DNA of 64,000 nt from an uncultured delta proteobacterium (GCA_963743305.1 CAVUPH010000007.1:237552-301551); one strand, 5' to 3'; counted from the first letter of the stretch, positions 1,812-49,445 are shown. Notes: generated from the letters alone by a model not told the origin. Program-made: numbers and translations.

Positions 1812-1912
1812 AGGATGAACATCGAACATCGAGCCTCCCCGATCGAATGGTTAAATAGAGGCTGGTTTTTCATTCGAGGTTGGAAGTTCGATGTTCAATG
1901 TTCGACGTCCTT
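1812..1912. repeat. Inverted heptamer-array element (TCGAACA / TGTTCGA units), no cargo gene
   Basis: Left GAACATCGAACATCGAGCC..TCGAATG; right CATTCGAGGTTGGAAGTTCGATGTTCAATGTTCGACGTCC. Confidence 0.75.
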
Positions 1913-3867: not shown

Positions 3868-3888
3868 CGCTGCAGGTGAAAACTATCG

Positions 3889-4010
3889 GCGGAGCGCGGA
3901 GCGCGAAGCGCAAAGCGTCAGGCTCGCCCTGGTGGAGATTCAGCCAAGGCGGATTCGAGACAGTTCATTGTTCCGATTGGCGCTCGGCGCTCGGCGCCCC
4001 GCGCTCCGCG
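3889..4010. repeat. Inverted heptamer-array element (GCGGAGC / GCTCCGC-type units)
   Basis: Left GCGGAGC GCGGAGC GCGAAGC GCAAAGC; right CGCTCGG CGCTCGG CGCCCCG CGCTCCG. Explains the spurious N-terminal extension of the cbiB ORF. Confidence 0.75.
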
Positions 4011-4022
4011 GCCTTTCTAACC

Positions 4023-4982
4023 ATGCGCCCCTACCAATTCGCCCTCGCTTATCTTCTGGACCTGGCTATCGGCGATCCCCGGTTTATACCCCACCCGGTG
4101 CGTGGGTTTGGGTGGGCGATTCGTGTTCTGGAAAAGGCCCTCCGCCGGCCGGCTGAAAGTCCGGGGTGGGAAAGGTTTGCCGGGGTTATTTTAGCCCTGG
4201 GCTTGCCGGCCGCGGTTTTTTCGCTGACCTACTGGCTGATTTTCGGGCTGTTGCCAAGCCGGCCGGTCATCCAGTCCCTGGTCATTATTCTGTTGGCCTA
4301 TACGACCCTGGCCACCCGGTCGTTGCACCACGAGGCCGCCCGGGTCATCACGGCCCTGCAGGCCGGTAAGGTGACGGAAGCCCGGAAGCGGCTGAGCTGG
4401 ATCGTTGGTCGGGACACGGAACACCTGACCCGGGAGGAGATGATCAAGGCCACCCTGGAAACCATGGCCGAAAACCTTTCCGACGGGATTATTGCCCCTT
4501 TATTTTACCTGTTGATCGGCGGGGTGCCCCTGGCCCTGGCCTTCAAGGCGGCCAGTACCCTGGATTCCATGGTAGGCTACAAAAATGATCGCTACCGCTA
4601 TTTCGGTTGGGCCTCCGCCCGGCTGGACGATCTCTGGAATTATCTTCCGGCCCGAATTACCGCGCTATTGATCGTCCTGGTTTCCAGGTTTTGGGGCTTT
4701 TCCTGGAAACAGGCCTGGATCATCTACCGGCGGGATGGTCACCGGTACCCGAGCCCGAACGCCGGATTGCCCCAAGCCGCTTTAGCCGGCGCCTTGCAAA
4801 TCCGCCTGGGCGGACCGGCCCTCTATGGGGGGGTAAAAAGCGAAAAGCCTTTTCTGGGCGATGACCGCGTCGAGATTACCCTGGCGGAATACCGCCAGAC
4901 CGTGACTGTTTTGTATGCCTCCTCCGCCCTGATGGCCCTGGTCGTCCTTGGGGGGCGGTTTTTGTGGGAATATCTTCAATGA
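4023..4982 (+). CDS. cbiB: Adenosylcobinamide-phosphate synthase CbiB/CobD
   Basis: LDLAIGDP..HPV, IVGRDT, ENLSDGIIAPLF, TLDSMVGYKN, SPNAG motifs; start moved to ATG 4023. Confidence 0.93.
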   Translation: MRPYQFALAYLLDLAIGDPRFIPHPVRGFGWAIRVLEKALRRPAESPGWERFAGVILALGLPAAVFSLTYWLIFGLLPSRPVIQSLVIILLAYTTLATRSLHHEAARVITALQAGKVTEARKRLSWIVGRDTEHLTREEMIKATLETMAENLSDGIIAPLFYLLIGGVPLALAFKAASTLDSMVGYKNDRYRYFGWASARLDDLWNYLPARITALLIVLVSRFWGFSWKQAWIIYRRDGHRYPSPNAGLPQAALAGALQIRLGGPALYGGVKSEKPFLGDDRVEITLAEYRQTVTVLYASSALMALVVLGGRFLWEYLQ

Positions 4983-5135
4983 CAACCTCGCAGAAAGTCC
5001 AAAAACGATTTTCTACTCGGCGGGGGAGGGCCCTCCCTCCCCCGCCACTTGAAGTGAATTCAAATGGTCCCACCCCTACCCCAGACCGGGGCTTAATCGC
5101 CCTCGGTCTGTTGACGGACTTTTTGCGAGTCCGTC
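4981..5135. mobile_element. MITE-like element (~155 bp), copy 1
   Basis: Imperfect terminal IRs GACAACCTCGCAGAAAGTCC / GGACTTTTTGCGAGTCCGTC; a similar inverted copy lies at 50497-50652. Confidence 0.7.
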
Positions 5136-6249: not shown

Positions 6250-6283
6250 GTTCGCTGTTGGAAGTTCGATGTTCGACGTTCAT
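6250..6283. repeat. Single heptamer arm (TGTTCGA family)
   Basis: GTTCGCT GTTGGAA GTTCGAT GTTCGAC GTTCAT. Confidence 0.65.
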
Positions 6284-6311
6284 CTATTTTTGGGATGATC
6301 GGGATATCGGC

Positions 6312-8281: not shown

Positions 8282-8328
8282 AAGATGAGATGGGTTCAAT
8301 CCAACAAAAGGGCTCAATCCTGAAAAGC

Positions 8329-8420
8329 TCGAACATCGAACATCGAACGTCCAACGTCGAATGTCTAATGGTAAAGGACGAAGAAGCGTGGCAATTTTGG
8401 CAAGATGTTCGATGTTGACG
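8329..8420. repeat. Inverted heptamer-array element (TCGAACA family)
   Basis: TCGAACA TCGAACA TCGAACG TCCAACG TCGAATG ... GATGTTCGATGTTG. Confidence 0.75.
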
Positions 8421-13186: not shown

Positions 13187-16100
13187 GTGAAGCTGAAAGT
13201 ATTGATCGCAGAAGATGAACCGGCCCATGAGGAGGCCATCAGAAGGGCATTAAGCAAAGCCGATGGCGCCTTTGAAATTCAAGTAGCTGGAACCCTGCAA
13301 GAATTCCGGGGGCTGGCCGCCGTCGATCCGCCGGATATCGCCCTGCTGGATTTGAACCTGCCGGATGGCCGCGCCGTGGAAGTCCTGACCTTCCCTCCGG
13401 AAGCCGGACCCTTTCCGGTCCTGATCATGACCAGTTTCGGCAGCGAACAGGCAGCGGAGGAGGCCATGAAATGTGGGGCGCTGGATTACCTGGTCAAGTC
13501 CCCGGAGACCTTTTCCCAACTTCAACGGATCATCAAAAGGACGTTGCGGGAATGGCGGTTGCTTCAAGAGAAGAAGGAGGCGGAGGAACTCCTGCGCCAA
13601 AGCCGGCACTTGTATCAAACGTTCCTGGACAGCTTTTCCGATACGACCTTCCTTAAGGATGAACAGTTCCGCCACTTGATTCTCAACGAGCGATTGCTGG
13701 AATATTTTGGCAAACCACGCGAAGAAGTCATCGGGAAAACCGATTTTGATTTGATGCCCGCCGCCTTGGCTGAAAAATGTCGTCGTTCCGATAAGGCCGT
13801 CCTGGCAGGTGAAGCCGTGGTGGTTTCTGAAGAGCTGGTCGGGGACCGTATTTATGAAACTACCAAGTTTCCGGTCCAAGTTGCTTCCAACCGGCGAGGT
13901 ATTGGAGGTTACATTCGCGATATCACCGCGCGACGGCAGGCCGAGGAGGCTCTCCGGGAAAGCACGGAGATGTTACAGGCGCATCAGGTCGAACTGGAGA
14001 TGCAGAATGAGGAATTGCGACGGATCCAGGGGCAACTGGAAGTCTCGCAGGGCAGGTATTTCGATCTGTACAATCTGGCTCCGGTGGGTTACCTCACCCT
14101 CAACGAAAAAGGCCTGATCCTGGAGGCCAATCTCACCGGCGCCGAGCTCCTGGGCCAATCCGGAGGTGCCTTGATCAATCAGCCGTTGACCCGCTTCATC
14201 CTGCCGGAAGATCAGGACATCTATTACCGGCACCGAAAACTCCTTCTTGAAACGGGTGCGCCGCAGGTGTGCGAGATGAGAATGCTGGGGCGCGCAGACA
14301 GCATATTCTGGGTTCGTCTGGATGCGGCTATCACCCAGAACGCCGACGGATCTTGGGTTTGCCGCGCCGTATTGATCGACATTACTGCCCGAAAACAGTC
14401 GGAAGAGAGCCTACGGGAGAGCGAGGCGCGGTACCGCGACCTGGTGGAAAACAGCCAGGATTTGATCTGTACCCACGATTTGGAGGGGAAGCTGGTATCC
14501 GTAAATGAGGCCGCGGCCAGAAATATGGGCTATGACCGGGGTTCCCTTCTGAACCGCAACCTGCGGGATTTTCTCGATCCCGCGGTTCGAGACTTGTTCG
14601 CAGTCTATTTGTCGGAAATCAAGGAGACCGGAAGGTCCCAGGGGGTACTGCGGGTATTGAACGCCTCCGGGGATGTCCGACTTTGGGAATACAGCAATTC
14701 CTTGCGGACCGAGGGATTGGCCGTTCCCCTGGTCCGCGGCCTGGCCCACGACATTACCGAACGGCACCGGATCGAGCGGGCCCTTCTGAAAAGCGAGGCC
14801 AAGTACCGGCGGCTCCATGAATCGATGATGGATGCCTTTGTCAGCGTCGAGATGACCGGCCGGATAACGGAATTCAACCAGGCCTATGAAGCTTTATTGG
14901 GCTATTCAAAAGAGGAACTTCGTCGGCTGACCTATATGGATCTGACTCCGGAACGCTGGCATTCCCTGGAGAGGGATCTGGTGAATGAGCAAGTCTTGGT
15001 GCGGGGATACTCGGACATCTATGAAAAGGAATATCGAAGGAAGGACGGGACCGAGTTCCCCGTGGAAATGCGGACCTTTTTGATCCGGGACTCCCATGGC
15101 CGGCCGGAAGGGATGTGGGCCATTGTGCGGGACATCAGCGAGAGGAAAAGGGGGGAAGAAGCCTTGCGCAAGGCCGAGGAAAAGTACTCCAAGGCCTTTC
15201 AGGCGAGTCCGGACTGGGGCGCAATCACCACCTTGGACGAGGGGGTTTTGATTGAGGTGAATAAGGCCTTTGAACGCTTGAGCGGGTTTGAGCGAAAAGA
15301 GGTCCTGGGAAGGACCACCGCGGATATAGGGATCTGGGACCAACCCGAGGAACGTCGTCTCCTGATAGACTTGATGCGGGATCAGGGGGCGGTTCACAAT
15401 AAGGAGGTCCATTTTCGGCTGAAGAATGGTGCGGTCCAAACCTTCATGCTCTCCGCGGAAACGATCGAACTGGAGGGCCAGGCCTTGATGCTGACGGTGG
15501 CCCGGGATATGACGGAACTTCGGAGTCTGGAGGCCCAGTTTCGCCAGGCCCAGAAGATGGAGGCGGTGGGCCGTTTGGCCGGCGGGGTGGCCCACGACTT
15601 CAACAACATGCTGGGGGTAATCCTGGGCTATACCGACCTGGCCCTGAAGCGGGTGAATGCCCAGGAACCCCTCTATCAGGACCTTCAGGAAGTAAATAAT
15701 GCGGCCCGGCGTTCAGCCGATCTGACCCGGCAGCTTCTGGCCTTTTCCCGAAAACAAATGGTAACGCCCAGGGTCCTCAATTTGAATGAGGCCATAACCC
15801 ACCAGCACAAGATGTTGAGACGGCTGATCGGCGAGGATATCTACCTGCAGTTTATCCCGGGCCAAGACCTCTGGAATATTCGTCTGGACCCTTCCCAAGT
15901 CGACCAGGTGCTGGCCAATCTGGCGGTCAATGCCCGAGATGCCATCGCCGGAGTGGGGACCGTCACCATCGAGACGGCGAACGTCACCCTGGATGAGGGC
16001 TATACCCGGCGCTACCGCTATGTCACTCCCGGGGATTACGTGCTCCTGACCATGAGCGATTCGGGCTGCGGCATGGACGGGGAGACGCTGGAGACTATCT

Positions 16101-16669
16101 TCGAACCATTTTTCACCACCAAAGCCGAAGGGCAGGGGACCGGGCTGGGACTGTCCACGGTTTACGGGATCGTCAAGCAAAACAAGGGATCGATTCAGGT
16201 CTCTAGCGAACCGGGCCGGGGGACGACCTTCAAAATCTATTTTCCCCGCTTCCCGGGGGAGGCGGTCCCGGAGGAGCAGGAGAGGGAGCGGCCTTTAGGG
16301 GGGAGCGAAACCGTGCTGATCGTCGAGGACGAACCCCAGATTCTCCTGCTGGCCAAAAGGATCTTGGAGCATTACGGCTATGAAACCGTGGGCGCCGGTT
16401 CTCCGGGAGAGGCACTGCTGCTCCTGGAAAAGTATCGGGGCCCCCTAGACCTTCTGCTGACCGATGTGATCATGCCCCACATGACCGGCCCGGAACTGAA
16501 AGCGCGGGTGGAGTCGCTTCATCCGGGGATCAAGACGGTGTTTATGTCCGGCTACACGGCCGACGTGATCGCCCAGCGGGGACTTCTGGATAAGGGGTTG
16601 GCCTTTATTCAAAAGCCTTTCACCGTGCAGGATTTAGCCGGGATGGTGCGGAAAGCGTTGGATGGATAG
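13187..16669 (+). CDS. Hybrid sensor histidine kinase REC-(PAS)x5-HisKA-HATPase-REC
   Basis: LLDLNLPDG receiver, repeated PAS/PAC with DIT motifs, GVAHDFNN H-box, [30 protein letters not shown]. Confidence 0.93.
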
Positions 16670-16740
16670 GCAAAAAGCCTTCGGCGTTGGGCGTTCGGCG
16701 ATCGGCGTGGGAAGGAAGAGAAAAAGGGGGAAAGGGAGTC

Positions 16741-16900
16741 GAATATCCAATATCCAACAAGGAATTGCCAATGATGAAGGAAAGAATTGTTGATCTACAG
16801 GTCCGGAGCGATGATTTCATCGAGGATGCCAGGAAAAACAAAGCCCGAGGGTGAACCACTATTTGGGTCTTGGATATTCCTTGTTGGATATTGGATATTC
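16741..16900 (+). mobile_element. Internally deleted mini-copy of the four-helix-bundle/heptamer-IR cassette
   Basis: 31-bp arms at 16741-16771 and 16870-16900 match those at 20495/20917; 27-aa mini-ORF 16771-16854 fuses the N- and C-termini of the four-helix protein. Confidence 0.8.
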
Positions 16901-16925
16901 AAAGGATCATAGTGCCGGGAGAAGA

Positions 16926-17054
16926 AGTGTGTGAGTGTGTGGGTAAGTGAGGATGTGGGGGAAATCAGAGCCAAGGGGGAAAGAGCACAGTGTTCAGGGT
17001 GGAGTTCAGGGGGGAGACGTGTGTGAGTGTCTGGGTAGGTGGGTTGTGAGTAAG
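16926..17054. repeat. Octamer (GTGTGTGA) arms interleaved with GTTCAGG-type heptamers
   Basis: GTGTGTGAGTGTGTGGGTAAGTGA ... GTGTTCAGGGTGGAGTTCAGG ... GTGTGTGAGTGTCTGGGTAGGTGGG. Confidence 0.6.
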
Positions 17055-17367
17055 AAAATGGTGTAATAGTTTATGAGAATTTGGTGAGGTACTTGAAAGA
17101 AGAAGACCCTTAATCACCTACTTTCTTTCAATGGTGAGCTACTCGCGCCGTTGGATACTATTACCACTTCCGCTATCGCGGCTACTACATAATTTTATTG
17201 ACAAAATAGATATAGCATCTTCAAAATAATGAGATAGTAGTCTATTTGGAGTTTTTTTCAGAAAAATCCTCTAGGGAGTTAGAAGGATAGGGGCTCACCG
17301 ATTCGTACCTTTTTGAATAGCCCATCGGATTTTGCTATTCATTTTTCCGGCAGATTGGAGGATAAAC

Positions 17368-19125
17368 ATGGACGGAAAAGAGACTCCTTCCGGGGTGACG
17401 GACGATTTGCGACGGCGGGCGGAGGAGGTTGCCCGGGGCGGAGGATCACGGACGCCGGATAACCTGGAGTCCCTGTCACCCGAGGCGACGCAGCGGCTGG
17501 TCCACGAACTGCGGGTGCATCAGGTCGAACTGGAGATCCAGAACGAGGAATTGCGCCGGACCCAGGAGCAACTGGAAGGCTCTCGGGCGAGATATTTCGA
17601 CCTGTACGATCTGGCTCCGGTGGGGTATGTCACCCTCAGCCAAGAGGGGATGATCCTGGAGGCCAATCTTACGTTTGCCGCTCTGCTGGGGGTGATCCGA
17701 GGCGTTTTGGTCAAACAGCCGTTGACCCGCTTCATCGTTCGCGAGGACCAGGATATCCACTATCTGCACCGCAAGCAACTTCTGGAGACGGGTGCCTCCC
17801 AGCCTTACGAGCTGCGGATGCTCCGCCAGGGGCGCCCCCCCTTCTGGGCGCGGGCGGAGGCGACCACCGCTCTCGACGATGAGGGGACGACGATCTGTCG
17901 GGTCGTGGTGAGCGACATTACCGAGCACAAACGCACGGATGCCAGGAAGAGCGAAATCGAGGACCAGTCCCGGCAAACCCAGAAAGCCCAAAGTCTAGGC
18001 CGTATGGCCGGGGCCATCGCCCATCATTTCAATAACCAGCTCCAGGCCGTGATGGGAAACCTGGAGTTGGCCCTTTGGGATTTACCGCCGGATAAAGGAC
18101 CGGTTAAAAACCTGCAGGCCGCCATGGAAGCGGCCAACCACGCGACGGAAGTCACCAAAGTGCTGCTGACCTACCTGGGGCAAACACCCGGTGAACGTGA
18201 GCCGCTGGATATTTCCGAGATCTGCCGTCGGAGCCTGATCATGCTCCGGGCGGCCATGCCGAAAGACATGCTTCTGACGATCGATTTTCCCTTCCCCGGT
18301 CCGGTCATCCGCGCGAACGCCAACCAAGTGCAGCAGGTCCTGACCAACCTGGTCACCAATGCCTGGGAAGCCGCCCAAGGCGGCCGGGCCGCCATTCGCC
18401 TTGCCATCAAAACGGTTTCCCCGGCGGCTATCCCCGAAGCAAACCGTTTTCCCATCGGTTGGCAGCCGGAGGATCGGTCCTATGCCTGCCTGGAAGTGGC
18501 GGACACCTGCTGCGGAATCGCGGAACAGGAAATCGAGAATATTTTCGATCCTTTTTTCTCCACCAAATTCACCGGCCGGGGTCTGGGCCTGCCCGTGGTC
18601 CTGGGGATTGTCCGGGCGCACCGGGGGGCCGTGGTGGTGGAGAGCGAACCGGGTCGGAGGAGCACTTTCCAGGTCTTTTTACCGTTGTCCGTCCAAAAGG
18701 CTCCCCGCCTGCCGGAGCAGGCGGGTCAGGCCTTCGAGATGGTTAGGGGCGGTACCATGTTGCTGGTTGAAGACGAGGAAATGGTGCGTGAATTGACGGC
18801 CGATATGCTCACCCGCCTCGGTTTTACGGTGCTCGAAGCGAAAGACGGCGTCGAGGCGGTGGAGATTTTTCGAGGGCACCAGGATGAAATCCGTTGCGTC
18901 TTGTGCAACCTGACCATCCCCCGCCTGGACGGTTGGGCGACCATGGCGGCCTTGCGTGAACTCAAGCCAGACCTTCCGATAATTCTGGCCAGCGGATACG
19001 ATGAGTCCGAGGTGATGACCGGGGACCATTCCGAATGGCCCCAGGTGTACCTGAGCAAACCCTTCGAATTTAAGGGGCTTCGCACTGCGGTCTCCCAAGC
19101 GCTGAAAACCAAGGGGGGAAGCTGA
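17368..19125 (+). CDS. Hybrid sensor kinase (coiled coil-PAS-HisKA-HATPase-REC) with degenerate motifs
   Basis: GGAGG SD before ATG 17368; AIAHHFNN, NAWEA, PFFSTKFTGRGLGL; receiver reads LCNLTIP. Confidence 0.88.
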   Translation: MDGKETPSGVTDDLRRRAEEVARGGGSRTPDNLESLSPEATQRLVHELRVHQVELEIQNEELRRTQEQLEGSRARYFDLYDLAPVGYVTLSQEGMILEANLTFAALLGVIRGVLVKQPLTRFIVREDQDIHYLHRKQLLETGASQPYELRMLRQGRPPFWARAEATTALDDEGTTICRVVVSDITEHKRTDARKSEIEDQSRQTQKAQSLGRMAGAIAHHFNNQLQAVMGNLELALWDLPPDKGPVKNLQAAMEAANHATEVTKVLLTYLGQTPGEREPLDISEICRRSLIMLRAAMPKDMLLTIDFPFPGPVIRANANQVQQVLTNLVTNAWEAAQGGRAAIRLAIKTVSPAAIPEANRFPIGWQPEDRSYACLEVADTCCGIAEQEIENIFDPFFSTKFTGRGLGLPVVLGIVRAHRGAVVVESEPGRRSTFQVFLPLSVQKAPRLPEQAGQAFEMVRGGTMLLVEDEEMVRELTADMLTRLGFTVLEAKDGVEAVEIFRGHQDEIRCVLCNLTIPRLDGWATMAALRELKPDLPIILASGYDESEVMTGDHSEWPQVYLSKPFEFKGLRTAVSQALKTKGGS

Positions 19126-19155
19126 ATATCCAATAGCCAACAAGGAATTTTCCAA
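19124..19155 (+). repeat. Solo left arm of the four-helix cassette
   Basis: GAATATCCAATAGCCAACAAGGAATTTTCCAATG fills the spacer between TGA 19125 and ATG 19155. Confidence 0.8.
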
Positions 19156-20496
19156 TGAACAAGCCACGCCAGGACAGCGAATCCCCGATTCCGCGGACTA
19201 CGGATCTTCGCCGGCAAGCCGAGGAGATCGTCCGCGGAAATCAATCCCGATCACCCGAGAACCTTGACGGCCTGTTGTCTGAGGAATTGCGGCAGACGCT
19301 CCATGAACTGCGGGTGCATCAGATTGAGCTGGAGATGCAGAACGAGGAGTTGCGCCGGACCCAAGAGGAACTGGAGGCTTCGCGGGCGTGCTATTTCGAG
19401 CTGTACGAACTGGCCCCGGTGGGGTATGTCACCCTCAGCGAACAGGGGCTGATCCTGGAGGCCAATCTTACGATCGTTGGTCTGTTGGGAGTGCACCAGG
19501 GACGGTCTGGTCAAACAACCCTTGACCCGCTTCATCGTTCGCCAGGACCAGGATATTCACTACCGGCACCGGAAGCAGCTTTTGGAAACGGGTGCGCCCC
19601 AGGTCTACGAGGTCAGGATGTCGCGAAAGGGAACCGCCCCCTTTTGGGCGCGCTTGCAGGCCGTTGCCGCCCAAGACGCTGAAGGGGTTCCCCTCTGCCG
19701 CGTCGCGGTAAGCGACATTACCCGACGCATCCGTGCCGAGGAGGCGGAAAGGCGCGCTGCGGAGGAACTGCAAAAATCTCATCAGATACTGGAAAAGAGG
19801 GTCGAGGATCGAACGGTCGAAGTCAGGTCCCTGGCCTCGCGCTTCCTGGCAGCCCAGGAGGAAGAAAGAAAAAGGATAGCCGGAGACCTTCATGACGGCC
19901 TCGGGGGATTGCTGAGCGCCATCAAGTATAAATTTGAGGCGGCCCAAGGGCCCCAAGAAGTAAAAGAAGTGATCCCCCTGCTGCAGCAGGCCATTGACGA
20001 CTGCCGGCGAATCCAAAAGAATTTGAGGCCGTTTATGCTGGATGACCTCGGCCTGTTGGCTACCCTGAGCTGGCTGACCCGCGAGTTCCAAAAAAGGAGT
20101 CCCGGCCTAAAGGTCGGGAAGAAATTTGACGTCGAAGAGGGCGCGATTCCTCAATCCTTGAAAACGGTGATTTTTCGGACTACCCAGGAGGCCTTGAATA
20201 ATATCTCCAAGCACAGCCGGACCGATCGGGTGCAGCTCGCCCTGCGGCTTGCCAAGGGGACTTTGCAGTTGGTTGTTCGCGATTACGGTCAGGGGTTCGA
20301 GGTCAGAGAGGCATTGGCTAAAAGGGGGGTCGATCGGGGACTCGGCCTGGCCAGTATGCGGGAACGGGTTGAATGGTCCGGGGGCAGCTTCTCGATCCAA
20401 TCCGTGCTCGGAAAGGGGACGATGGTGCAGGCCTCCTGGCCGGTAGGTGTGGCCGAGCCCGGACTCGTGTCCGGCAAAAAGGTTAAGGTAAGGTGA
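19155..20496 (+). CDS. PAS plus HisKA_3 (NarX/UhpB-type) sensor kinase; +1 indel near 19493
   Basis: [12 protein letters not shown] coiled coil and PAS in the first ORF; EEERKRIAGDLHDGLG, QEALNNISKHS, DYGQGF, GLGLASMRER in the second. Confidence 0.85.
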
Positions 20497-20947
20497 ATAT
20501 CCAATATCCAACAAGGAATTTCCAAGGATGAAGGGAACGATATTTGATCTACAGGACCGGCTTATTGATTTTGCGGTAAGAATTATAAGACTTTCCGAAG
20601 TGATTCCGGAAAGCAAAGCCGGCAAACATATCGGTACGCAACTGTTGAGAAGCGGCACATCACCGGCCCCAAACTATGGAGAGGCGCAAAGTGCTGAATC
20701 AAAAGCTGATTTCATCCACAAGCTCAAAATTGCGCTGAAAGAACTGCGTGAAACCGAGATTTGGCTGAAGATCATCATCCGGGCGGAATTAGTCAAACCT
20801 TCGAGACCAACTCGCCCCATTGCTAAAGGAGACGGATGAGCTGATCTCAATATTGTTTAAGAGTGTGGAGACGGCTAAAAAAAACAAGGAGCGAAAATGA
20901 ATCCACTACTTGGACGTTGGATATTCCTTGTTGGATATTGGATATTC
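20495..20947 (+). mobile_element. Four-helix-bundle cassette bounded by 31-bp inverted heptamer arms
   Basis: Left 20495-20525 GAATATCCAATATCCAACAAGGAATTTCCAA; the reverse complement of right 20917-20947 is identical at 30/31 positions. Mobility is inferred. Confidence 0.7.
20528..20900 (+). CDS. Four helix bundle protein (TIGR02436 / 23S rRNA-IVP family); +1 indel near 20800
   Basis: DLQDRLIDFA, QLLRSGTSPAPNYGEAQSAESKADFIHKLKIALKELRETEIWL. The C-terminal helix LLKETDELISILFKSVETAKKNKERK* is in the next frame. Confidence 0.88.
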
Positions 20948-20977
20948 GAAAGGATAATAGGCTAAGGAGGTACCCGG

Positions 20978-23900
20978 ATGGCCGTAACGAAAAAAGCTGA
21001 GGCCAAGGAAAAGAAAAAGGAGGTCCAGCGTAGGCCGGCCAAGGGAAAGCCGGCTCCCCCATTGAACCTGGAACCGGAGAAGGGCTTTCCCGTCGTCGGC
21101 ATCGGCGCCTCCGCCGGAGGGCTGGCCGCCTTTGAGGCCTTCTTCTCCGCCATGCCCGCCGACGTCGATCCCGGCATGGCCTTTGTCCTGGTGCAACACC
21201 TGGCCCCGGACCACAAGAGCATACTCACCGACCTGATTAAACGCTATACCCGGATGCAGGTCTATGAGGTCGAAGACGGGATGGAAGTCCGACCCAACTG
21301 CGCCTACATCATACCGCCCAACCGGGATATGGCCTTTCTGCACGGTCGACTCTATCTGAGCGAGCCGCTGAAGGCCCGGGGCCTGCGTTTGCCCATCGAT
21401 TTTTTCTTCCGCTCCCTGGCCCAGGACCAGCACGAGCGGGCTATCTGCATCGTACTCTCCGGCACCGGCAGCGACGGCACACTGGGCGTGCGGGCGATCA
21501 AGGGTGAGGGCGGCATGGTCATGGTGCAGAACCCCGAATCCACGCCCTACGACGGCATGCCGCGCAGCGCCATTGCCACCGGCCTGGTGGACTTTGTTCT
21601 GCCGTCGGCGGAGATGCCCGCCCATCTCCTGGCCTATGTGGGACGGGTCTTCGGCCAGCCTTTTCGGCCGGTAACTGCCCCGGAACCCAAGGCCGAGAGC
21701 ACGCTGAAGAAGATTTTCATCCTCTTGCGCGCCCAGACCGGTCACGATTTTTCCCTTTACAAGCCGAATACCATCAACCGCCGGATCGAAAGGCGCATGG
21801 CCGTTCACCAGATCGAAAAGATGAGCGATTATCTGCGCTATCTGCAACAGAATTCAGCGGAGGTGGTGGGGCTTTTTCGCGATCTTTTAATCGGGGTAAC
21901 CAATTTTTTCCGTGACCCGGAAGCCTTTACGACGCTGGAACAGCAAATCATCCCCCGGCTTTTTTCCGGTAAACCCGCGGGCGCCCTGATTCGCGTCTGG
22001 GTACCCGGATGCTCTACCGGCGAGGAGGCCTATTCTCTCGGGATTCTCCTTCAGGAGTACCAGGAAACGCTCAAGCAAAGGTTCAAACTCCAGGTCTTCG
22101 CCACCGACATTGACGGCCAGGCTATTGGTACGGCCCGCGCCGGCCTCTATCCCGCCAGCATCGCCTCCGACGTCACCCCGGAACGGCTGGCCCGGTTTTT
22201 CGTCCAGGAATCCGATAGCAGCGCCTACCGGGTTCACAAAGGCATCCGCGACCTGATGATTTTTTCCGAGCAGGACGTGATCAAAGATCCGCCCTTCTCT
22301 AGACTCGATCTGATCAGTTGCCGCAATCTCTTGATCTATATGAGTGGGGAACTGCAGCAGAAAATTATTCCGCTGTTTCACTATGCGTTGAATCCGGGCG
22401 GGTTTCTCTTCCTGGGCACTTCCGAGACCGTAGGGGAATACGCGAACCTTTTTGCCGCGCTGGATCGTAAATGGAAGCTGTATCAACGCCGGGAGGAATT
22501 CTCCGGCCTCCACCGTCCGGATATGAGCCGATTTCTCCCGGCCCATTTAGAGGCAGGCCTTATCCCCCGGGCCGCGGGAAAGGCTTTGGGGGACCATAAG
22601 GAGCCTCTGCGGAAATTGACCGAACGCGTGCTGCTGCAGCAATACGCCCCGGTGGGAGCGCTGGTCAACGAGCGTGGCGACATTCTTTACCTTCACGGCC
22701 GCACCGGCCGGTACCTGGAACCAGCCCCGGGCGAGGCCGGGATTAACAATATTTTGAAAATGGCCCGCGAAGGACTGCGGCGCGAACTAACCACCGCCCT
22801 GCATCAAGCCGCAGCGGGTCTCGAAATCGTGCGCTGCGCGGACCTGCGCGTCAAAACCAACGGGGAGGTCACCAGGGTCCAGGTAACGGTTCGGCCGGTG
22901 CCCGTGACCCCGAACATCGTCTTGTCGGCCGGGCCGGAAAAGCCCGGCGCCGGTCCGAACCTGTTTCTGATTATTTTCGAGGAACCGCCGGAAAGGGTCA
23001 GCGAGGGGCCTGAAAAGCCCGGTCCCGCAGCCGCCGGACCGGTTGCGCCCGAGAACGCCCCGGACACGGACGCGCGAATCGCGGCCTTGAAGCAGGAGCT
23101 GCAGGCCAAGGAGGAATACCTTCAGTCCACCAATGAGGAACTGGAGACTTCCAATGAAGAGCTCAAATCGACCAACGAGGAGATGCAGTCCGTCAACGAG
23201 GAACTGCAATCCACCAACGAGGAGCTGGAGACCTCCAAGGAAGAGCTGCAATCGGTCAACGAAGAGCTGGCTACCGTCAACGCCGAGCTGCAGACCAAGG
23301 TGGTGGACCTATCGCGGGCCAACAACGATATGAACAACCTGCTGGCCGGCACGGGCATCGGGACTATCTTCGTCGACCATCAACTGCGCATCCTCAGTTT
23401 TACCCCCGCCGTAACCCAGGTGATCAACCTGATCCTGACCGACGTGGGTCGTCCGGTGGGACATATCGTCTCCAACCTGACGGGCTACGACCATCTGGTG
23501 GCGGACGTGCAGTCCGTGCTGGATACCCTGGTGCCCAAAGAGGTCGAAGTGCAGACTCGGACGGGCGACTGGTTTCAGTTGCATATCCGGCCCTATCGTA
23601 CGCTGGAAAACGTGATCGAGGGGGCGGTGATCACCTTTACCGGAATTACCCTATTGAAAAGGGCGGAGGCCGCTCTGCGGGATTCCGAGGCCCTGCGCCG
23701 CCTGGCCGTGGTGGTCCGCGACTCCCAGGAGGCCATCACCGTGCAGGATTTTGACGGCCGCATTCTGGCCTGGAACCCGGCGGCGGAAAGGATGTACGGT
23801 TGGAGCGAGGCGGAAGCCCTGACTATGAATGTCGGAGCCCTGGTCCCCAAGGGGCGGCGCAAGGAAGCGCTGGGCCATTTGCGGCAGCTTAGCGGAGCTG

Positions 23901-24037
23901 AGGGGCCTGGGCCTATTCGCGCGGAGCGTTTGACCAAAGACGGCCAAATAATAGCCGTCTGGCTGACGGCCACCGCCCTGGTCAATGACTCCGGGGTGCC
24001 CTACGCCGTATCGACCACGGAAAGAAAGATCCGTTAG
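20978..24037 (+). CDS. CheB methylesterase / CheR methyltransferase fusion with coiled coil and PAS domains
   Basis: [21 protein letters not shown] (CheB); [33 protein letters not shown] (CheR); [10 protein letters not shown] heptads; C-terminal PAS. Confidence 0.93.
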
Positions 24038-24793
24038 TGAAAGGGGTCTGATCCTGGAGGCCAATCTCACGGTGGCCAAACTCTTGGGTCAGGCCAGAAG
24101 CCGACTGTTCAAACAGCCCTTGACCCGTTTTATCCTTCCCGAAGACCAGGACATCTATTACCGGCACCGCAAGCTTCTTTGGGAAAAGGGTGCGCGTCAA
24201 GTGTGCGAGATGAGAATGCTGAAAACGGACGGCAGCGAATTCTGGGTGCGCCTGGATGCGGAAGCCGCTCGGGACGCTGACGGATCGTATTTTTGCCGTG
24301 CCGCCTTGATCGACATTACCCTGAGCAACCGGACGGAGCGGGCCCTCCTGAGAAGCGAGTCCAACGCCGGAGTGGGGACCGTCACCATCGAGATGGCTAA
24401 CGTTACCCTGGATGAGCGCTATGCCCGGTGCTATCCCGATGTCACCCCCGGGGATTACGTGCTCCTGACCGTGAGCGATTCAGGCTGCGGTAGGGACGGG
24501 GAGACGCTGGAGCGGATCTTCGAACCCTTTTTCACCACCAAGGCCGAAGGGCAGGGGACCGGGCTGGGACTGTCCACCTGCTGACCGATGTGATCATGCC
24601 CCACATGACCGGCCCGGAACTGAAAGCGCGGGTGGAGGCGCTTCATCCGGGGATCAAGACGGTGTTCATGTCCGGCTACACGGCCGACGTGATCGCCCAA
24701 CGGGGACTTCTGGATAAAGGGTTGGCCTTTATTCAAAAACCTTACACCGTCCAGGATCTAGCCGGGATGGTGCGGAAGGCGTTGGATGGGTAG
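24038..24793 (+). pseudogene. Deletion-mosaic paralog of the 13187-16669 kinase
   Basis: Consecutive blocks match about 14104-14386, 14750-14801, 15946-16158 and 16455-16669; the H-box is missing. Confidence 0.85.
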
Positions 24794-24863
24794 GCATGAA
24801 ACGTTCGGCGTTGGGCGTTCGGCGATCGGCGTGGGAAGGAAGAGTTCAGGGGGAAAGGGAGTC

Positions 24864-25009
24864 GAATATCCAATATCCAACAAGGAATTGCCAATGATGA
24901 AGGAAAGAATTGTTGATCTACAGGTCCGGAGCGATGATTTCATGGAGGATGCCAGGAAAAACAAAGCCCGAGGGTGAACCACTATTTGGGTCTTGGATAT
25001 TGGATATTC
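24864..25009 (+). mobile_element. Second mini-copy of the four-helix cassette
   Basis: Near-identical to 16741-16900; mini-ORF 24894-24977; right arm is 14 bp shorter. Confidence 0.8.
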
Positions 25010-25035
25010 AAAGGATCATAGTGCCGGGAGAAGAA

Positions 25036-25150
25036 GTGTGTGAGTGTGTGGGGGTGTGAGTATGTGGGAAAGGAAAAGCCTTGGTTACTCACATACTCAC
25101 ACACTCAAATACTGTTTTCATAGGCCCACATACGCACCTACTCACGCACA
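25036..25150. repeat. Inverted octamer-array element
   Basis: GTGTGTGAGTGTGTGGGGGTGTGAGTATGTGG ... CTCACATACTCACACACTCAAATAC ... CCCACATACGCACCTACTCACGCAC. Confidence 0.75.
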
Positions 25151-25154
25151 GTCT

Positions 25155-25514
25155 TTAACTGGGCATTTGTCCCAAGAGTTGACGGACGGTAAAGATGAAA
25201 TCCCCGGGCTTTTGAACCCGGATAGAATTGGATTTTGGAAAATAGTGCCGGGTATTAAAGGATATCAGGTAGGAACAATTTTCTTGAATAGCCGCGACGA
25301 GTAAGGGGAGGTCTTTGGGGTCAGCCTCAGAGGAATGGGCGCGCAGGTCGCCGGGCGTCGGGTCGGAAATCACCCTCAAACACCGACTGACCAGCAGCCG
25401 AAACTCCGTGAGCTTAGCAGGGATTTTTTTCTCCAGGTTTCTTTCCACTTCCGTTATGGCTTGCTGGGAAGTGACGCAATCCAACAAAGTCAATTCTCCC
25501 ATCCTCAGCAGCAT
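25155..25514 (-). pseudogene. PIN-domain protein lacking its first strand and catalytic Asp
   Basis: TSQQAITEVERNL..DPKDLPLLVAA..LISFNTRHY; no N-terminal FxD motif. Confidence 0.6.
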
Positions 25515-25598
25515 ATACCTCTTTTCCTGAAAATCTGTTTAATCAGTTTTACTGATTCTATGGCTAAGGGATAAGGGAATGGCATATTATTGCATTGA

Positions 25599-27632
<2,034 letters not shown>

Positions 27633-27711
27633 AGAAGAGGGAGAGAGGGAAAGAGGGGAGAAAAAAACATAGTTCAACTTTCGTTGAATTGCCCAAAAAC
27701 AAAAAAAAATC

Positions 27712-27808
27712 GAATACCCAATATCCAACAAGGAATATCCAATGATGAAGGAAAAAGCCTTCAACTTGCTGGCCTGTAGCAAATAGGGAAAGCAAAGCCG
27801 GCAAACAT
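27712..27808 (+). pseudogene. Left arm plus remnant of the four-helix-bundle gene
   Basis: Arm GAATACCCAATATCCAACAAGGAATATCCAA, then ATGATGAAGG; 22 bp at 27787-27808 are identical to 20608-20629. Confidence 0.78.
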
Positions 27809-27852
27809 GATGTTTGCAAAATAAGTCCCCTTTCGTAATAAGGAGCGCGCTT

Positions 27853-35577: not shown

Positions 35578-37242
35578 ATGCAGGCCTTTCCCCATCAGGC
35601 GGGCGTCTATCTCATGCGGGATAGTTCCGGGAAGGTTCTGTATGTGGGGAAGGCCAAAGATCTCAGGAAAAGAGTACTGTCCTATTTGAAGGCCTCGGGG
35701 ATCAAGACCATAAAGCTGCTGGACCGGGCGGAGACGATTGAATGCATTCTGACGGATAATGAAAAAGAAGCCCTGATTCTGGAAAGCAACCTGATCAAGA
35801 AGTACCGGCCCCGGTATAACGTGGATCTCCGGGATGACAAACGCTACCCCTGCCTGCGTTTGGACCCGCAAGAAACCTTTCCTCGGCTCCAGGTGGTGCG
35901 TAAAATCCGAAACGACGGGGCCGTCTATTTAGGGCCTTTTTCCGCCGCGGGGAAGATGCGCGCCACGCTTTTTATGATCCAGCAGGTCTTCCCGCTCCGC
36001 CAATGCCGGCAGAAGGAGCTGCCCCGCCGCTCCCGGCCTTGCCTCTATTACCAGACCGGACGGTGCCCCGGCCCTTGCCGGGATAAGATTTCCAGCGAAG
36101 AATATGGCCGTCGGGTGGATGGTATTATCCAGTTCTTCCAGGGCCATAATTCGAACCTGACCCGGGATTTAAAACAACGCATGCAGGAGGCTGCGGACGC
36201 CTTTCGGTTTGAAGAGGCGGCTATCCTGCGGGATCAAATCCGGGCGATTTCAGAGACCTTGAAGGAACAGCATGTGGTTTCCTCGCGCCTGGAACAGGCT
36301 GATGTGCTGGCCTTGGTCGAGTCCGCCGAGGCGATTGCCGCCGTTATTCTGTTCATTCGTTTTGGATCGGTGGCCGGGATGGCCCGATTTCTGTTTCGGG
36401 ACCCCTCCCAACCGCTGGAGGAGGTTTTGGCCGATCTGATTACCCAGTATTACCGGAAGGATCGTTACCTGCCCCCGAGGATTTTTGTTCCTTTTCCTTT
36501 TGAAGACCGGTTGCTGCTGGAAGAGATCCTTTCCGAACAAAAAGGGGAGCTAGTGAAACTGGTGGTTCCTCGGCGCGGTGAGGCCCGACATTGGCTGGAG
36601 ATGGCCGAAGAGAATGCCCGCGTCGCCCTCAAAGGAAAAGAGGCCGACCGGAATTTTCAGGAGACCATTGCCACCCCGCTTCAGGAAAGGCTAGAGCTAA
36701 AAAAGCACCCGGTCCGGGTGGGGGCTTTGGATATTTCCAATCTCCAGGGCCGTCAGGCTGTGGGCTCCTGGGTGGTTTTTAACCAGGGACTGCCGGAAAA
36801 ATCCAGATATCGCCGGTTTCGAATCCGAACAGTGGAACAGCCCAATGACTATGCCATGATGGCCGAGGTGATCGGCCGTCTGATCCGGCACCCCGAGGAA
36901 ATCCCCGATCTGATACTCATCGATGGCGGGAAAGGGCAGTTAAATATTTTAAAGGAAATTTTTGACTCTCTGCCGGAGAAACAGCGGCCGGACCTCGCGG
37001 CGATCGCTAAAAAAACCTTTCTCGCTTCAGGGGGGAAAGACGGGATTTATCTGCCTGGACGCAAGAACCCGTTGAATCTGCGGTCCGATTCCCCGGTGCT
37101 TCATTTTTTACAGCGGGTCCGGGATGAGGCCCACCGGTTCGCCCTGAGCTACCACCACTTGCTGCGGAGGAAGGAGATCCGCCAAGAGCAGGGCGCTGAG
37201 CGCGTAGCGCGTAGCGCGGAGTGCAAGGCGCAAGGCACCTGA
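35578..37242 (+). CDS. uvrC: Excinuclease ABC subunit C, lacking the C-terminal HhH domain
   Basis: GVY..LYVGKAKDLRKRV GIY-YIG, UVR, DISN, DLILIDGGKGQL, RDEAHRFA. True start may be ATG 35520 across a C-run indel. Confidence 0.93.
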   Translation: MQAFPHQAGVYLMRDSSGKVLYVGKAKDLRKRVLSYLKASGIKTIKLLDRAETIECILTDNEKEALILESNLIKKYRPRYNVDLRDDKRYPCLRLDPQETFPRLQVVRKIRNDGAVYLGPFSAAGKMRATLFMIQQVFPLRQCRQKELPRRSRPCLYYQTGRCPGPCRDKISSEEYGRRVDGIIQFFQGHNSNLTRDLKQRMQEAADAFRFEEAAILRDQIRAISETLKEQHVVSSRLEQADVLALVESAEAIAAVILFIRFGSVAGMARFLFRDPSQPLEEVLADLITQYYRKDRYLPPRIFVPFPFEDRLLLEEILSEQKGELVKLVVPRRGEARHWLEMAEENARVALKGKEADRNFQETIATPLQERLELKKHPVRVGALDISNLQGRQAVGSWVVFNQGLPEKSRYRRFRIRTVEQPNDYAMMAEVIGRLIRHPEEIPDLILIDGGKGQLNILKEIFDSLPEKQRPDLAAIAKKTFLASGGKDGIYLPGRKNPLNLRSDSPVLHFLQRVRDEAHRFALSYHHLLRRKEIRQEQGAERVARSAECKAQGT

Positions 37243-49304: not shown

Positions 49305-49398
49305 GAACGTCGAACATTGAATATCGAACGCCCAATCTTAAATGAAATACAAACCTCCCATTCAACATTCGATGTTGGGCGTTCGATGTTCGACGTTC
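49305..49398. repeat. Inverted heptamer-array element (TCGAACA family)
   Basis: GAACG TCGAACA TTGAATA TCGAACG CCCAAT ... CATTCGA TGTTGGG CGTTCGA TGTTCGA CGTTC. Confidence 0.8.
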
Positions 49399-49445
49399 AA
49401 ATCTTTTGGAATTTAGATGGCCCAAACGCAGACTAAGGAGGCAAT

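What the first reader, a model, noticed from the sequence alone, without database searches (positions are those of the whole stretch)
20495..20947. Four-helix-bundle (IVP/Avd-like) gene packaged between inverted heptamer arrays: candidate transposase-less element
Seen: the gene is bracketed by 31-bp arms (30/31 identical as inverted repeats) made of 7-bp units (TATCCAA TATCCAA CAAGGAA TTTCCAA). The left arm overlaps the TGA of the upstream kinase, and the cassette sits co-directionally inside an apparent operon. Four relatives lie in this window (16741, 19124, 24864, 27712). Known: this family of unknown function was first found in RNase III-excised 23S rRNA intervening sequences and is structurally related to Avd, the nucleic-acid-binding partner of DGR reverse transcriptase. 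Inference: arms plus gene are one unit that spreads and decays like an autonomous element with non-autonomous derivatives. In mRNA the arms would pair into a long stem looping out the gene, like an IVS. No transposase or RT is in the window, so the mechanism is open.
Basis: partly seen in the sequence, partly recalled or inferred. Interest (0 to 1): 0.85.

Follow-up and report, generated by a model that had tools for sequence, protein, structure and literature searches.

The report
Broken four-helix-bundle gene hairpin cassette
A small, now broken gene of the family first seen inside ribosomal-RNA intervening sequences sits between two operon genes, closed off by mirror-image runs of 7-base repeats; related genomes show the same spot intact, reduced to a bare hairpin or empty, so it looks like one decaying copy of a widespread, barely described kind of gene cassette that comes and goes.

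Summary
Two 31-nt arms (30/31 complementary) bracket a frameshifted PF05635/TIGR02436 gene between a histidine kinase and a cheB-cheR gene, all on the + strand. The four other copies named exist, and a sixth lies on another contig.

At the orthologous junction, relatives show an intact cassette (G003), a gene-less hairpin (G002), an arm remnant (G001) and no element (G007).

The layout is general. Flanking inverted repeats scored >=28 in 52 of 77 family genes from the window's phylum (controls 10 of 297) and in 50 of 78 from many phyla including archaea (controls 1 of 286). The arms are mostly tandem heptamers, different at each locus.

A sister family (GAACATC-type arms, protein 52% identical) has gene-bearing copies in two relatives. 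It has 53 to 222 arm copies per genome in two genera.

No reverse transcriptase was found above cut-off. Y1 transposases occur elsewhere in the genome.

Best reading: an IVS-type hairpin cassette that is gained, decays to MITE-like hairpins and is lost. Its stem is a likely RNase III site, as shown for the Coxiella 23S IVS, whose cut maps to a heptamer array. How it moves is unknown.

This scan noted the class before on other DNA (515 notes). My five literature searches found no general description.

The parts
20494..20526 (+). Left arm of the cassette. Its first three bases are the TGA stop of the upstream kinase. It contains an AAGGA Shine-Dalgarno-like word 12 nt before the ATG.
   Evidence: I3, I5
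20528..20899 (+). PF05635/TIGR02436 four-helix-bundle gene, broken by a +1 frameshift at about 20801-20807. The ORF 20528-20839 continues in another frame to the stop at 20897-20899. The six family-invariant residues (Q38 R41 S45 N49 E52 E75) are still encoded.
20917..20949 (+). Right arm, the reverse complement of the left arm. It ends 29 nt before the ATG of the cheB-cheR ORF; that gene's AAGGAGG ribosome-binding site lies between them.
16741..16900 (+). Mini copy with both arms (16741-16771 and 16870-16900, 94% complementary). It keeps about 50 nt of the gene's 5' end and about 40 nt of its 3' end. This is an internal-deletion derivative.
   Evidence: (I7, D5, D10)
19124..19148 (+). Solo left arm. 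It supplies the TGA of ORF 17332-19125 and abuts the ATG (19155) of the next kinase. G002 has a complete gene-less hairpin at this site.
   Evidence: (D8)
24864..25010 (+). Second mini copy, inside a roughly 1-kb duplication of 16000-16959. Its right arm is 14 nt (two heptamers) shorter than in the 16741 copy.
   Evidence: (D2, D6, D7, D10, I24)
27712..27815 (+). Remnant downstream of ligA: a left arm (27712-27742), the gene start and one internal gene piece. There is no right arm.
   Evidence: (D5, D8)
19155..20496 (+). Upstream host gene: a PAS/HisKA_3/HATPase_c histidine kinase. It reads as two overlapping frames (19155-19682 and 19477-20496).
20978..24037 (+). Downstream host gene: a CheB methylesterase, CheR methyltransferase and PAS fusion.

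Best explanation
This is one decaying copy of an IVS-type hairpin cassette: a roughly 455-bp unit made of a four-helix-bundle (PF05635) gene enclosed by two inverted arrays of 7-nt repeats. It sits co-directionally in an operon spacer.

Shown:
- The unit is gained and lost as a whole.
- It loses its gene by internal deletion and leaves gene-less hairpins and solo arms.
- Arrays change by whole heptamers.
- In this genome the family is dead: one frameshifted full copy, three minis and two remnants. A relative keeps an intact copy.

Inferred:
- The cassette is read through from the host operon.
- The arms pair into a stem of about 31 bp that RNase III cuts, as it does at the heptamer array of the Coxiella 23S IVS. 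This separates the cassette RNA from the flanking cistrons.
- The encoded protein, the only product of the element, acts in trans on the arms. Gene-less hairpins would therefore persist and multiply like MITEs.

Open: the chemistry of insertion. No element-encoded transposase or RT is present.
For: Orthologous junction: G003 has an intact 123-aa gene with both arms; G002 has a gene-less hairpin; G001 has an 11-nt arm remnant; G007 has no arms.

Minis keep both gene ends. A 14-nt (2 x 7) arm deletion separates two otherwise 99% identical copies.

Sister family with GAACATC-type arms:
- Gene-bearing copies of about 470 bp occur in G004 and G007. That is 2 of 30 PF05635 loci fetched from five relatives.
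- Their protein is 52% identical (61/117) to the window lineage.
- Arm copies per genome are 53, 123, 78 and 80 in genus g1 and 152 and 222 in genus g2. 8 of the 21 genomes searched have a match. Of the 15 genomes outside g1 and g2, 13 have none and two have 1-2. The reversed-word control gives 0.
- G000 holds 14 complete hairpins of 86-254 nt.

Generality:
- Flank inverted-repeat score >=28 in 52 of 77 genes from 77 genomes of the phylum, against 10 of 297 shifted controls.
- 50 of 78 in a many-phyla set, against 1 of 286 controls.
- Best period is 7 in 56 of 79 left flanks and 53 of 78 right flanks, against 28 of 297 controls.
- Left and right heptamers agree within a locus in 31 of 51, against 3.6% between loci.

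Co-orientation: the upstream neighbour is on the same strand in 47 cases against 5, the downstream neighbour in 59 against 6.

Own genome: 67 period-7 arrays against 0-11 for each other period from 4 to 12. 31 of the 67 have an inverted partner within 300 nt.

RNA: the arms pair in both the MFE and the centroid fold, z = -3.83.

Precedent: the Coxiella IVS carries tandem heptamers upstream of its S23p ORF, and its RNase III 5' cut lies at the first repeat (PMC4990558, passages read; abstract and introduction).
Against: - No RNA evidence exists for this locus. The public runs held only small shares, and as contigs.
- Arm mismatches show no excess of G.U-compatible changes on the sense strand: 51 against 66, p = 0.20.
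- I could not define a target-site duplication or a precise empty junction. Spacers differ wholesale even between genomes whose flanking genes are about 95% identical.
- All seven strict matches to the window's arm word lie within 11 kb among paralogous kinase genes, two of them inside a segmental duplication. Part of the local spread is therefore ordinary duplication.
- Heptamer words hardly track protein similarity beyond close kin: 3 of 15 pairs at 60-80% identity, against about 4% at lower identity. A fixed protein-to-heptamer code is not supported.
- Genus g1 genomes hold 53-123 GAACATC arms, but no gene-bearing copy with those arms was found.
- Three longer PF05635-like genes in G000 have no arms.
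Confidence: 0.6

Rival explanations
1. REP/RAYT-like model. A host Y1 (IS200/IS605-type) transposase moves the hairpins by acting on folded single strands. The four-helix-bundle gene is only cargo or a regulator.
For: - G000 has 10 PF01797 matches, at least 5 without stops; one lies 3 kb from another cassette on contig C1.
- Y1 enzymes are known to act on hairpin repeats (established knowledge on REP/RAYT and IS200/IS605).
- Across 301 genomes, PF05635 and PF01797 co-occur more than expected: 137, 28, 72 and 64, odds ratio 4.3.
- No target-site duplication was seen, as is usual for Y1 elements.
Against: - 28 of 165 PF05635-positive genomes have no PF01797 match at E<=1e-5. Of the 11 of those I had sampled, 7 still show arms scoring >=28.
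- No Y1 gene lies on the window's contig.
- The element-specific partner of the arms across phyla is the PF05635 gene, not a Y1 gene.
Confidence: 0.2
2. Not mobile. The arms are only an RNA processing or stabilising stem that evolved in place. The copies arose by gene duplication and recombination among paralogous kinase loci.
For: - All strict arm matches in G000 lie within 11 kb.
- 16741 and 24864 are part of a roughly 1-kb duplication.
- The fold is stable.
- rRNA IVS stems are RNase III substrates (PMC4990558).
Against: - The copies have four different left flanks in the window, and one copy lies on another contig.
- The orthologous site is empty in G007.
- The sister family has 53-222 dispersed arm copies.
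- A different cassette (AGTGAAT arms, protein 22% identical) sits at the same position before the cheB-cheR ortholog of another family.
Confidence: 0.1
3. Retro-mobility. The protein acts like Avd with a reverse transcriptase, and the cassette moves through an RNA copy.
For: - A typical member shows distant similarity to Avd: E = 2.1e-5, 24.7 bits.
- The cassette is co-oriented with host transcription.
Against: - The only PF00078 match in G000 is a 20.4-bit fragment below the cut-off.
- The Avd model score is far below its cut-off of 80.
- No RT gene is adjacent.
Confidence: 0.03

Closest known systems
ORF-bearing intervening sequences (IVS) of 23S rRNA, e.g. the Coxiella burnetii helix-45 IVS (PMC4990558: abstract, introduction and heptamer passages read); Leptospira IVS as cited there
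   Same: - The same protein family (S23p/PF05635).
- A roughly 430-450-nt unit bordered by complementary ends that form a stem.
- Tandem heptamers upstream of the ORF, varying in number between strains.
- The ORF decays.
- The element is regarded as selfish and horizontally acquired.
   Different: - This copy lies between protein-coding genes, not in an rRNA helix. None of 201 family loci I fetched has 23S similarity.
- The arms here are whole inverted heptamer arrays.
- Gene-less derivatives reach hundreds of copies.
- RNase III cleavage is not shown here.
MITEs and their autonomous TIR transposons
   Same: - Terminal inverted repeats.
- Internal-deletion derivatives that outnumber the gene-bearing copies.
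- Lineage-specific bursts.
   Different: - No transposase domain is encoded. The only gene is a 120-aa helical bundle.
- No target-site duplication could be discerned.
- The arms are tandem arrays of variable length and sequence.
REP elements with RAYT (Y1) transposases (recalled knowledge)
   Same: - Short, intergenic, hairpin-forming repeats in high copy.
- A gene flanked by inverted copies of the repeat.
   Different: - The flanked gene is PF05635, not a Y1 transposase.
- 28 of 165 carrier genomes lack PF01797.
Avd of diversity-generating retroelements
   Same: - A four-helix-bundle fold family.
- The nearest solved relative, 2RLD, has five chains in the entry.
- Per PMC4990558, the related Xanthomonas S23p is a homopentamer.
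   Different: - No RT and no adjacent DGR.
- The Avd equivalog model is not met.
Cyanobacterial short tandemly repeated heptamer (STRR) sequences (recalled; the name comes from memory, no paper read)
   Same: Dispersed tandem heptamers of unknown origin. The family gene on Nostoc PCC 7120 plasmid alpha is followed by a C-rich period-7 array.
   Different: That copy lacks an upstream array; an IS lies just upstream. I did not test the link on a cyanobacterial chromosome.

Membership tests
PF05635 / TIGR02436 four-helix-bundle protein | Profile score above the curated cut-off | tested here: met
   Window ORF: PF05635 54.3 bits against 33.8; TIGR02436 77.1 against 24. G003 ortholog: TIGR02436 94.7 bits. 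Solved relative 2RLD at E = 7.9e-20.
PF05635 / TIGR02436 four-helix-bundle protein | Family-invariant residues (Q, R, S, N, E, E in 30 aligned members) | tested here: met
   Alignment A1. All six are encoded in the window copy.
PF05635 / TIGR02436 four-helix-bundle protein | Intact reading frame | tested here: not met
   A +1 frameshift at about 20801-20807. I cannot tell whether it is real or an assembly error.
rRNA intervening sequence (IVS) | Inserted in a helix of 23S or 16S rRNA | tested here: not met
   The element lies between a kinase and a cheB-cheR gene. 0 of 201 fetched family loci show 23S similarity.
rRNA intervening sequence (IVS) | Complementary borders form a long stem around the ORF | tested here: met
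rRNA intervening sequence (IVS) | Excised from the transcript by RNase III | not testable with these tools
   Only contigs of runs holding small shares were available.
DGR accessory protein Avd | Avd equivalog model met and an adjacent reverse transcriptase | tested here: not met
   The Avd model (NF033474) scores 24.7 bits against 80 for a typical member and gives no hit for the window lineage. No PF00078 match above cut-off in G000.
TIR transposon / MITE | Terminal inverted repeats and multi-copy deletion derivatives | tested here: met
TIR transposon / MITE | Element-encoded transposase in the autonomous copy | tested here: not met
   The only ORF of the intact copies is the 121-123-aa PF05635 protein.
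TIR transposon / MITE | Target-site duplication | tested here: inconclusive
   None was seen at 14 complete hairpins. The ends are blurred by variable repeat numbers. No alignable empty site was found.
REP/RAYT | A Y1 transposase gene flanked by the repeats, or at least present in every carrier | tested here: not met
   The flanked gene is PF05635. 28 of 165 carrier genomes have no PF01797 match. G000 itself has 10 matches.

The most novel reading that the evidence does not exclude
PF05635 proteins are the trans-acting factor of a very large, undescribed class of transposase-less hairpin elements found across bacteria and archaea. The protein, probably a ring-shaped multimer, would recognise the purine-rich 5' heptamer array of a folded single strand and direct its copying or insertion into transcribed spacers. 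On this reading, rRNA intervening sequences and orphan bacterial heptamer repeats are by-products of this one element class.
Probability: 0.35. Interest if true: 0.9.

Novelty: new variant of a known kind. Interest (0 to 1): 0.78.

Why it matters
PF05635/TIGR02436 is a very large family of unknown function. It was found in 165 of 301 genomes sampled in this phylum, often in several copies.

Three things would share one explanation and one testable partner (protein plus arms) if its normal habitat is a heptamer-armed hairpin cassette that comes, decays and goes:
- the family itself,
- the rRNA intervening sequences,
- many unexplained intergenic heptamer arrays and palindromes.

The cassettes sit inside operons. 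A long stem there should also change how neighbouring genes are processed and expressed.

This window is useful as a natural series. It holds one broken full copy, three minis and two remnants. Relatives give intact, hairpin-only, remnant and empty states of the same site. A sister family supplies masters and hundreds of derivatives.

Tried and rejected
1. Public reads. Eight runs held at most 0.10 of the sampled words, all as contigs. Two single low-depth DNA contigs join arm to arm without the gene (depths 2.4 and 2.7). One metatranscriptome has contigs over arm-like sequence. This is too weak, and possibly from relatives, so I did not use it as evidence.

2. Sense-strand wobble test for an RNA-selected stem. 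No signal: 51 against 66.

3. Precise junctions and target-site duplication. Spacers between G000 and G002 are replaced wholesale even where the genes are about 95% identical. The 14 GAACATC hairpins show palindromic ends but no flanking direct repeat.

4. Protein-to-heptamer code. Heptamer distance barely follows protein identity, so I do not claim base-by-base reading.

5. Link to rRNA in this data. The two 23S genes of the assembly are only 77% identical and differ by 15-38-nt insertions that are not heptamer hairpins. No fetched locus lies in 23S.

6. RT in the genome: none above cut-off.

7. PADLOC defence models: no hit for two family members.

8. Phage records: no tblastn match at 1e-10. 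Plasmids: 32 records, mostly cyanobacterial.

9. Literature. Searches (6 papers; 1; 25 of 3,374 listed; 9 of 10 listed; 3). Only PMC4990558 mentions heptamers with this gene, and only for one IVS. Supplementary files were not seen. Subscription-journal papers are outside the library.

10. Earlier-notes look-ups gave nothing on mechanism tests.

Full report
THE OBSERVATION

Arms 20495-20525 and 20917-20947 are 31 nt long, 97% complementary and 391 nt apart (I5). They are made of units of about 7 nt. The left arm begins inside the TGA of the upstream kinase ORF 19477-20496.

Between the arms lies a 103-aa ORF. It matches PF05635 at 54.3 bits against a cut-off of 33.8. It matches TIGR02436 at 77.1 bits against 24. 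The ORF is frameshifted, and its last 30 residues continue in another frame to 20899. Against the intact ortholog of a congener, the extra base lies at about 20801-20807. The six residues that are invariant in 30 aligned family members are still encoded.

The kinase, the gene and the cheB-cheR-PAS ORF 20978-24037 are all on the + strand. A consensus scan finds no + strand terminator and no promoter inside the element. That is weak evidence.

As RNA, the arms pair in both the minimum-energy and the centroid structure: -148 kcal/mol, z = -3.83, and 0 of 100 shuffles fold as well.

COPIES IN THIS GENOME

The 25-nt arm word with up to 3 mismatches occurs 7 times in the 4.9-Mb, 43-contig assembly. 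All seven lie in window 16741-27742, and the reversed control gives 0.

- 16741-16900 and 24864-25010 are minis with both arms. They keep about 50 nt of the gene's 5' end and about 40 nt of its 3' end.
- These two minis belong to a roughly 1-kb segmental duplication. They are 99% alike, except that one right arm is 14 nt (two heptamers) shorter.
- 19124-19148 is a solo left arm. It supplies the stop of ORF 17332-19125 and abuts the ATG of the next kinase.
- 27712-27815, after ligA, keeps a left arm, the gene start and one internal piece.
- A more diverged mini lies on another contig, C13:57006-57178.

In G000 this family therefore has no intact gene.

THE ORTHOLOGOUS SITE IN RELATIVES

- G003 (same genus; flanking genes 82-86% identical) has the cassette with an intact 123-aa gene (TIGR02436 94.7 bits) and both arms.
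- G002 (same genus; 94-95% identical) has only a hairpin: two heptamers of the left arm abutting a full right arm.
- G001 (same genus) keeps an 11-nt end of the right arm and lacks the kinase.
- G007 (another genus of the family) has the kinase with its own TAA and a spacer of about 115 nt without arms.

At the 19124 site, G002 has a complete gene-less palindrome where G000 has a solo arm. The kinase start codon is native in both.

In G021, from a different family of the phylum, a different cassette sits in the same position. It has AGTGAAT-type arms and a protein 22% identical to the window lineage. Its right arm ends about 20 nt before the ATG of the cheB-cheR ortholog.

IS THE LAYOUT GENERAL?

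PF05635 was found in 165 of 301 genomes sampled across the phylum. By one named record, the phylum is Thermodesulfobacteriota.

I took the best-listed match of 80 genomes. I dropped five listed matches that lay within 600 nt of a contig start, and I stopped at the 88th genome of the list. I aligned 160 nt upstream of each gene against the reverse complement of 160 nt downstream.

- Of 77 scorable loci, 52 scored >=28, against 10 of 297 position-shifted controls. Medians were 35 and 16. Several control hits are clipping artefacts or neighbouring elements.
- In a second set of 80 loci from named records of many phyla, 50 of 78 scored >=28, against 1 of 286 controls. The set held 36 scorable Bacteroidota loci, 10 Firmicutes, 9 Acidobacteriota and 2 Archaea, among others.
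- The best tandem period in the flanks is 7 in 56 of 79 left and 53 of 78 right flanks, against 28 of 297 controls. A Flavobacterium group shows period 8.
- The heptamer word differs from locus to locus. It agrees between the two arms of one locus in 31 of 51 loci, against 3.6% for arms of different loci.
- Arms are 32 nt at the median. The left arm ends 20 nt before the start codon and the right arm begins 16 nt after the stop.
- Neighbours are co-oriented: upstream 47 same against 5 opposite, downstream 59 against 6. 26 and 11 cases respectively were ambiguous, without a long ORF or off the contig.
- The 5' arm is G>C in 45 loci against 1, and in 43 against 4 in the second set. It is about 65% purine. 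By the symmetry of an inverted repeat this holds on either strand, so it is a polarity of the hairpin itself. The window's own arm is A-rich rather than G-rich.

GENE-LESS HAIRPINS AND A SISTER FAMILY

G000 holds 67 clean period-7 arrays, against 0-11 for every other period from 4 to 12. 31 of the 67 have an inverted partner within 300 nt.

The largest group has GAACATC-type arms, one base away from the window's GAATATC/CAATATC units.

- G000 holds 53 arm hits: 14 complete hairpins of 86-254 nt and 25 unpaired arms.
- Arm counts are 53, 123, 78 and 80 in the four genomes of genus g1, and 152 and 222 in genus g2.
- 8 of the 21 genomes searched have a match. Of the 15 genomes outside g1 and g2, 13 have none and two have 1-2. 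The reversed-word control gives 0.
- Among 30 PF05635 loci fetched from five relatives, two (G004, G007) are intact genes enclosed by these arms in a unit of about 470 bp.
- Their protein is 52% identical (61 of 117) to the window lineage.
- The hairpin loops keep the ends of that gene.
- Genus g1 has the hairpins, but I found no gene-bearing copy with those arms.
- The window's own arm family is low-copy everywhere: 7, 2, 0, 0 and 1 matches in G002, G003, G001, G004 and G007.

WHAT MOVES IT?

The element encodes only the 120-aa bundle.

- The genome has no reverse transcriptase above cut-off. The one match is a 20.4-bit fragment.
- It has 10 Y1-transposase matches. None lies on the window's contig.
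- Across the 301 genomes the two families co-occur: 137 with both, 28 with PF05635 only, 72 with Y1 only and 64 with neither. Kinship and genome size confound this.
- 28 carrier genomes lack Y1. Of the 11 of those that I sampled, 7 still have arms scoring >=28.
- No target-site duplication was visible, and no alignable empty site was available.
- Arm mismatches do not favour G.U pairs on the sense strand: 51 against 66, p = 0.20.
- Heptamer words track protein similarity only among close kin.

KNOWN RELATIVES

The closest described thing is the ORF-bearing 23S rRNA IVS. In Coxiella burnetii the 428-nt IVS of helix 45 is bordered by complementary sequences, encodes an S23p protein and is excised by RNase III (PMC4990558: abstract and introduction). 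The same paper reports two or three tandem heptamers upstream of the ORF, varying between strains, with the RNase III 5' cut at the start of the first repeat (passages). That is the only experimental anchor for the RNase III step proposed here.

None of my 201 fetched family loci lies in 23S rRNA, so the rRNA context is the exception.

Five full-text searches found no paper that describes heptamer-armed cassettes of this family outside rRNA. Subscription journals and supplements were not covered.

This scan has noted the class many times on other DNA: 515 notes in at least 472 genomes.

VERDICT

The thing is a new variant of a known kind: the IVS design, outside rRNA, with heptamer-array arms and MITE-like progeny.

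The steps that are shown are gain, loss, internal deletion, unit-wise array change, generality across phyla and co-orientation. The steps that are inferred are RNase III processing and trans action of the protein. The insertion chemistry is open.

Noticed in passing
window 1817-1903, 6250-6291, 8328-8362, 49367-49399: Gene-less hairpins or half-hairpins of the GAACATC-armed sister family lie inside the window. This family has 53 arm hits in the genome and up to 222 in a relative.
   Followed up: yes
window 3888-4010 and 37191-37221: Hairpins with GAGCGC-type heptamer arms. At the first site G002 has a different 144-nt spacer with other heptamers (CTGAAC-type), although the flanking genes are about 95% identical.
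   Followed up: partly
window 16680-16707, 24802-24831; 16911-17041, 25020-25150: More period-7 material lies next to the minis: GGCGTTC-type arrays, and GTGTGAG-type arrays that form their own inverted repeat (25035-25062 with 25086-25113). The GTGTGAG type also sits between the kinase and the cassette in G003.
   Followed up: no
window 4979-5135: An unrelated repeat of about 155 nt with its own terminal inverted repeat. Dozens of copies at 76-93% identity occur in G001-G003. The orthologous site in G002 is empty, with 5 nt in its place.
   Followed up: partly
window 19155-20496: The kinase upstream of the cassette reads as two overlapping frames (19155-19682 and 19477-20496). Either a second frameshift lies in this stretch or there are assembly errors.
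   Followed up: no
G000 contig C1:22850-24250: Another cassette with GTACGAG-type arms carries two PF05635 domains in tandem. A gene-less mini lies beside it, and a Y1 transposase gene lies 3 kb away (C1:20134-20490).
   Followed up: partly
G000 contigs C30:78713, C13:209445, C42:111187: Three longer PF05635-like genes (about 160-270 aa open frames) have no inverted heptamer arms. They may be a separate, arm-less subfamily.
   Followed up: no
G000 contigs C8:4985-8008 and C16:114353-117269: The assembly holds two 23S rRNA genes that are only 77% identical. One probably comes from a contaminant (contamination estimate 5.7%).
   Followed up: partly
L231 (Nostoc sp. PCC 7120 plasmid alpha) 1198-1610: A family gene on a cyanobacterial plasmid is followed by a C-rich period-7 array (CCTCTGC-type), but an IS lies where the upstream arm should be. 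The same protein occurs on plasmid gamma beside another IS.
   Followed up: partly
window 23094-23282: A 21-nt periodic repeat inside the cheB-cheR ORF. It is a coiled-coil-like coding repeat and not part of the finding.
   Followed up: no
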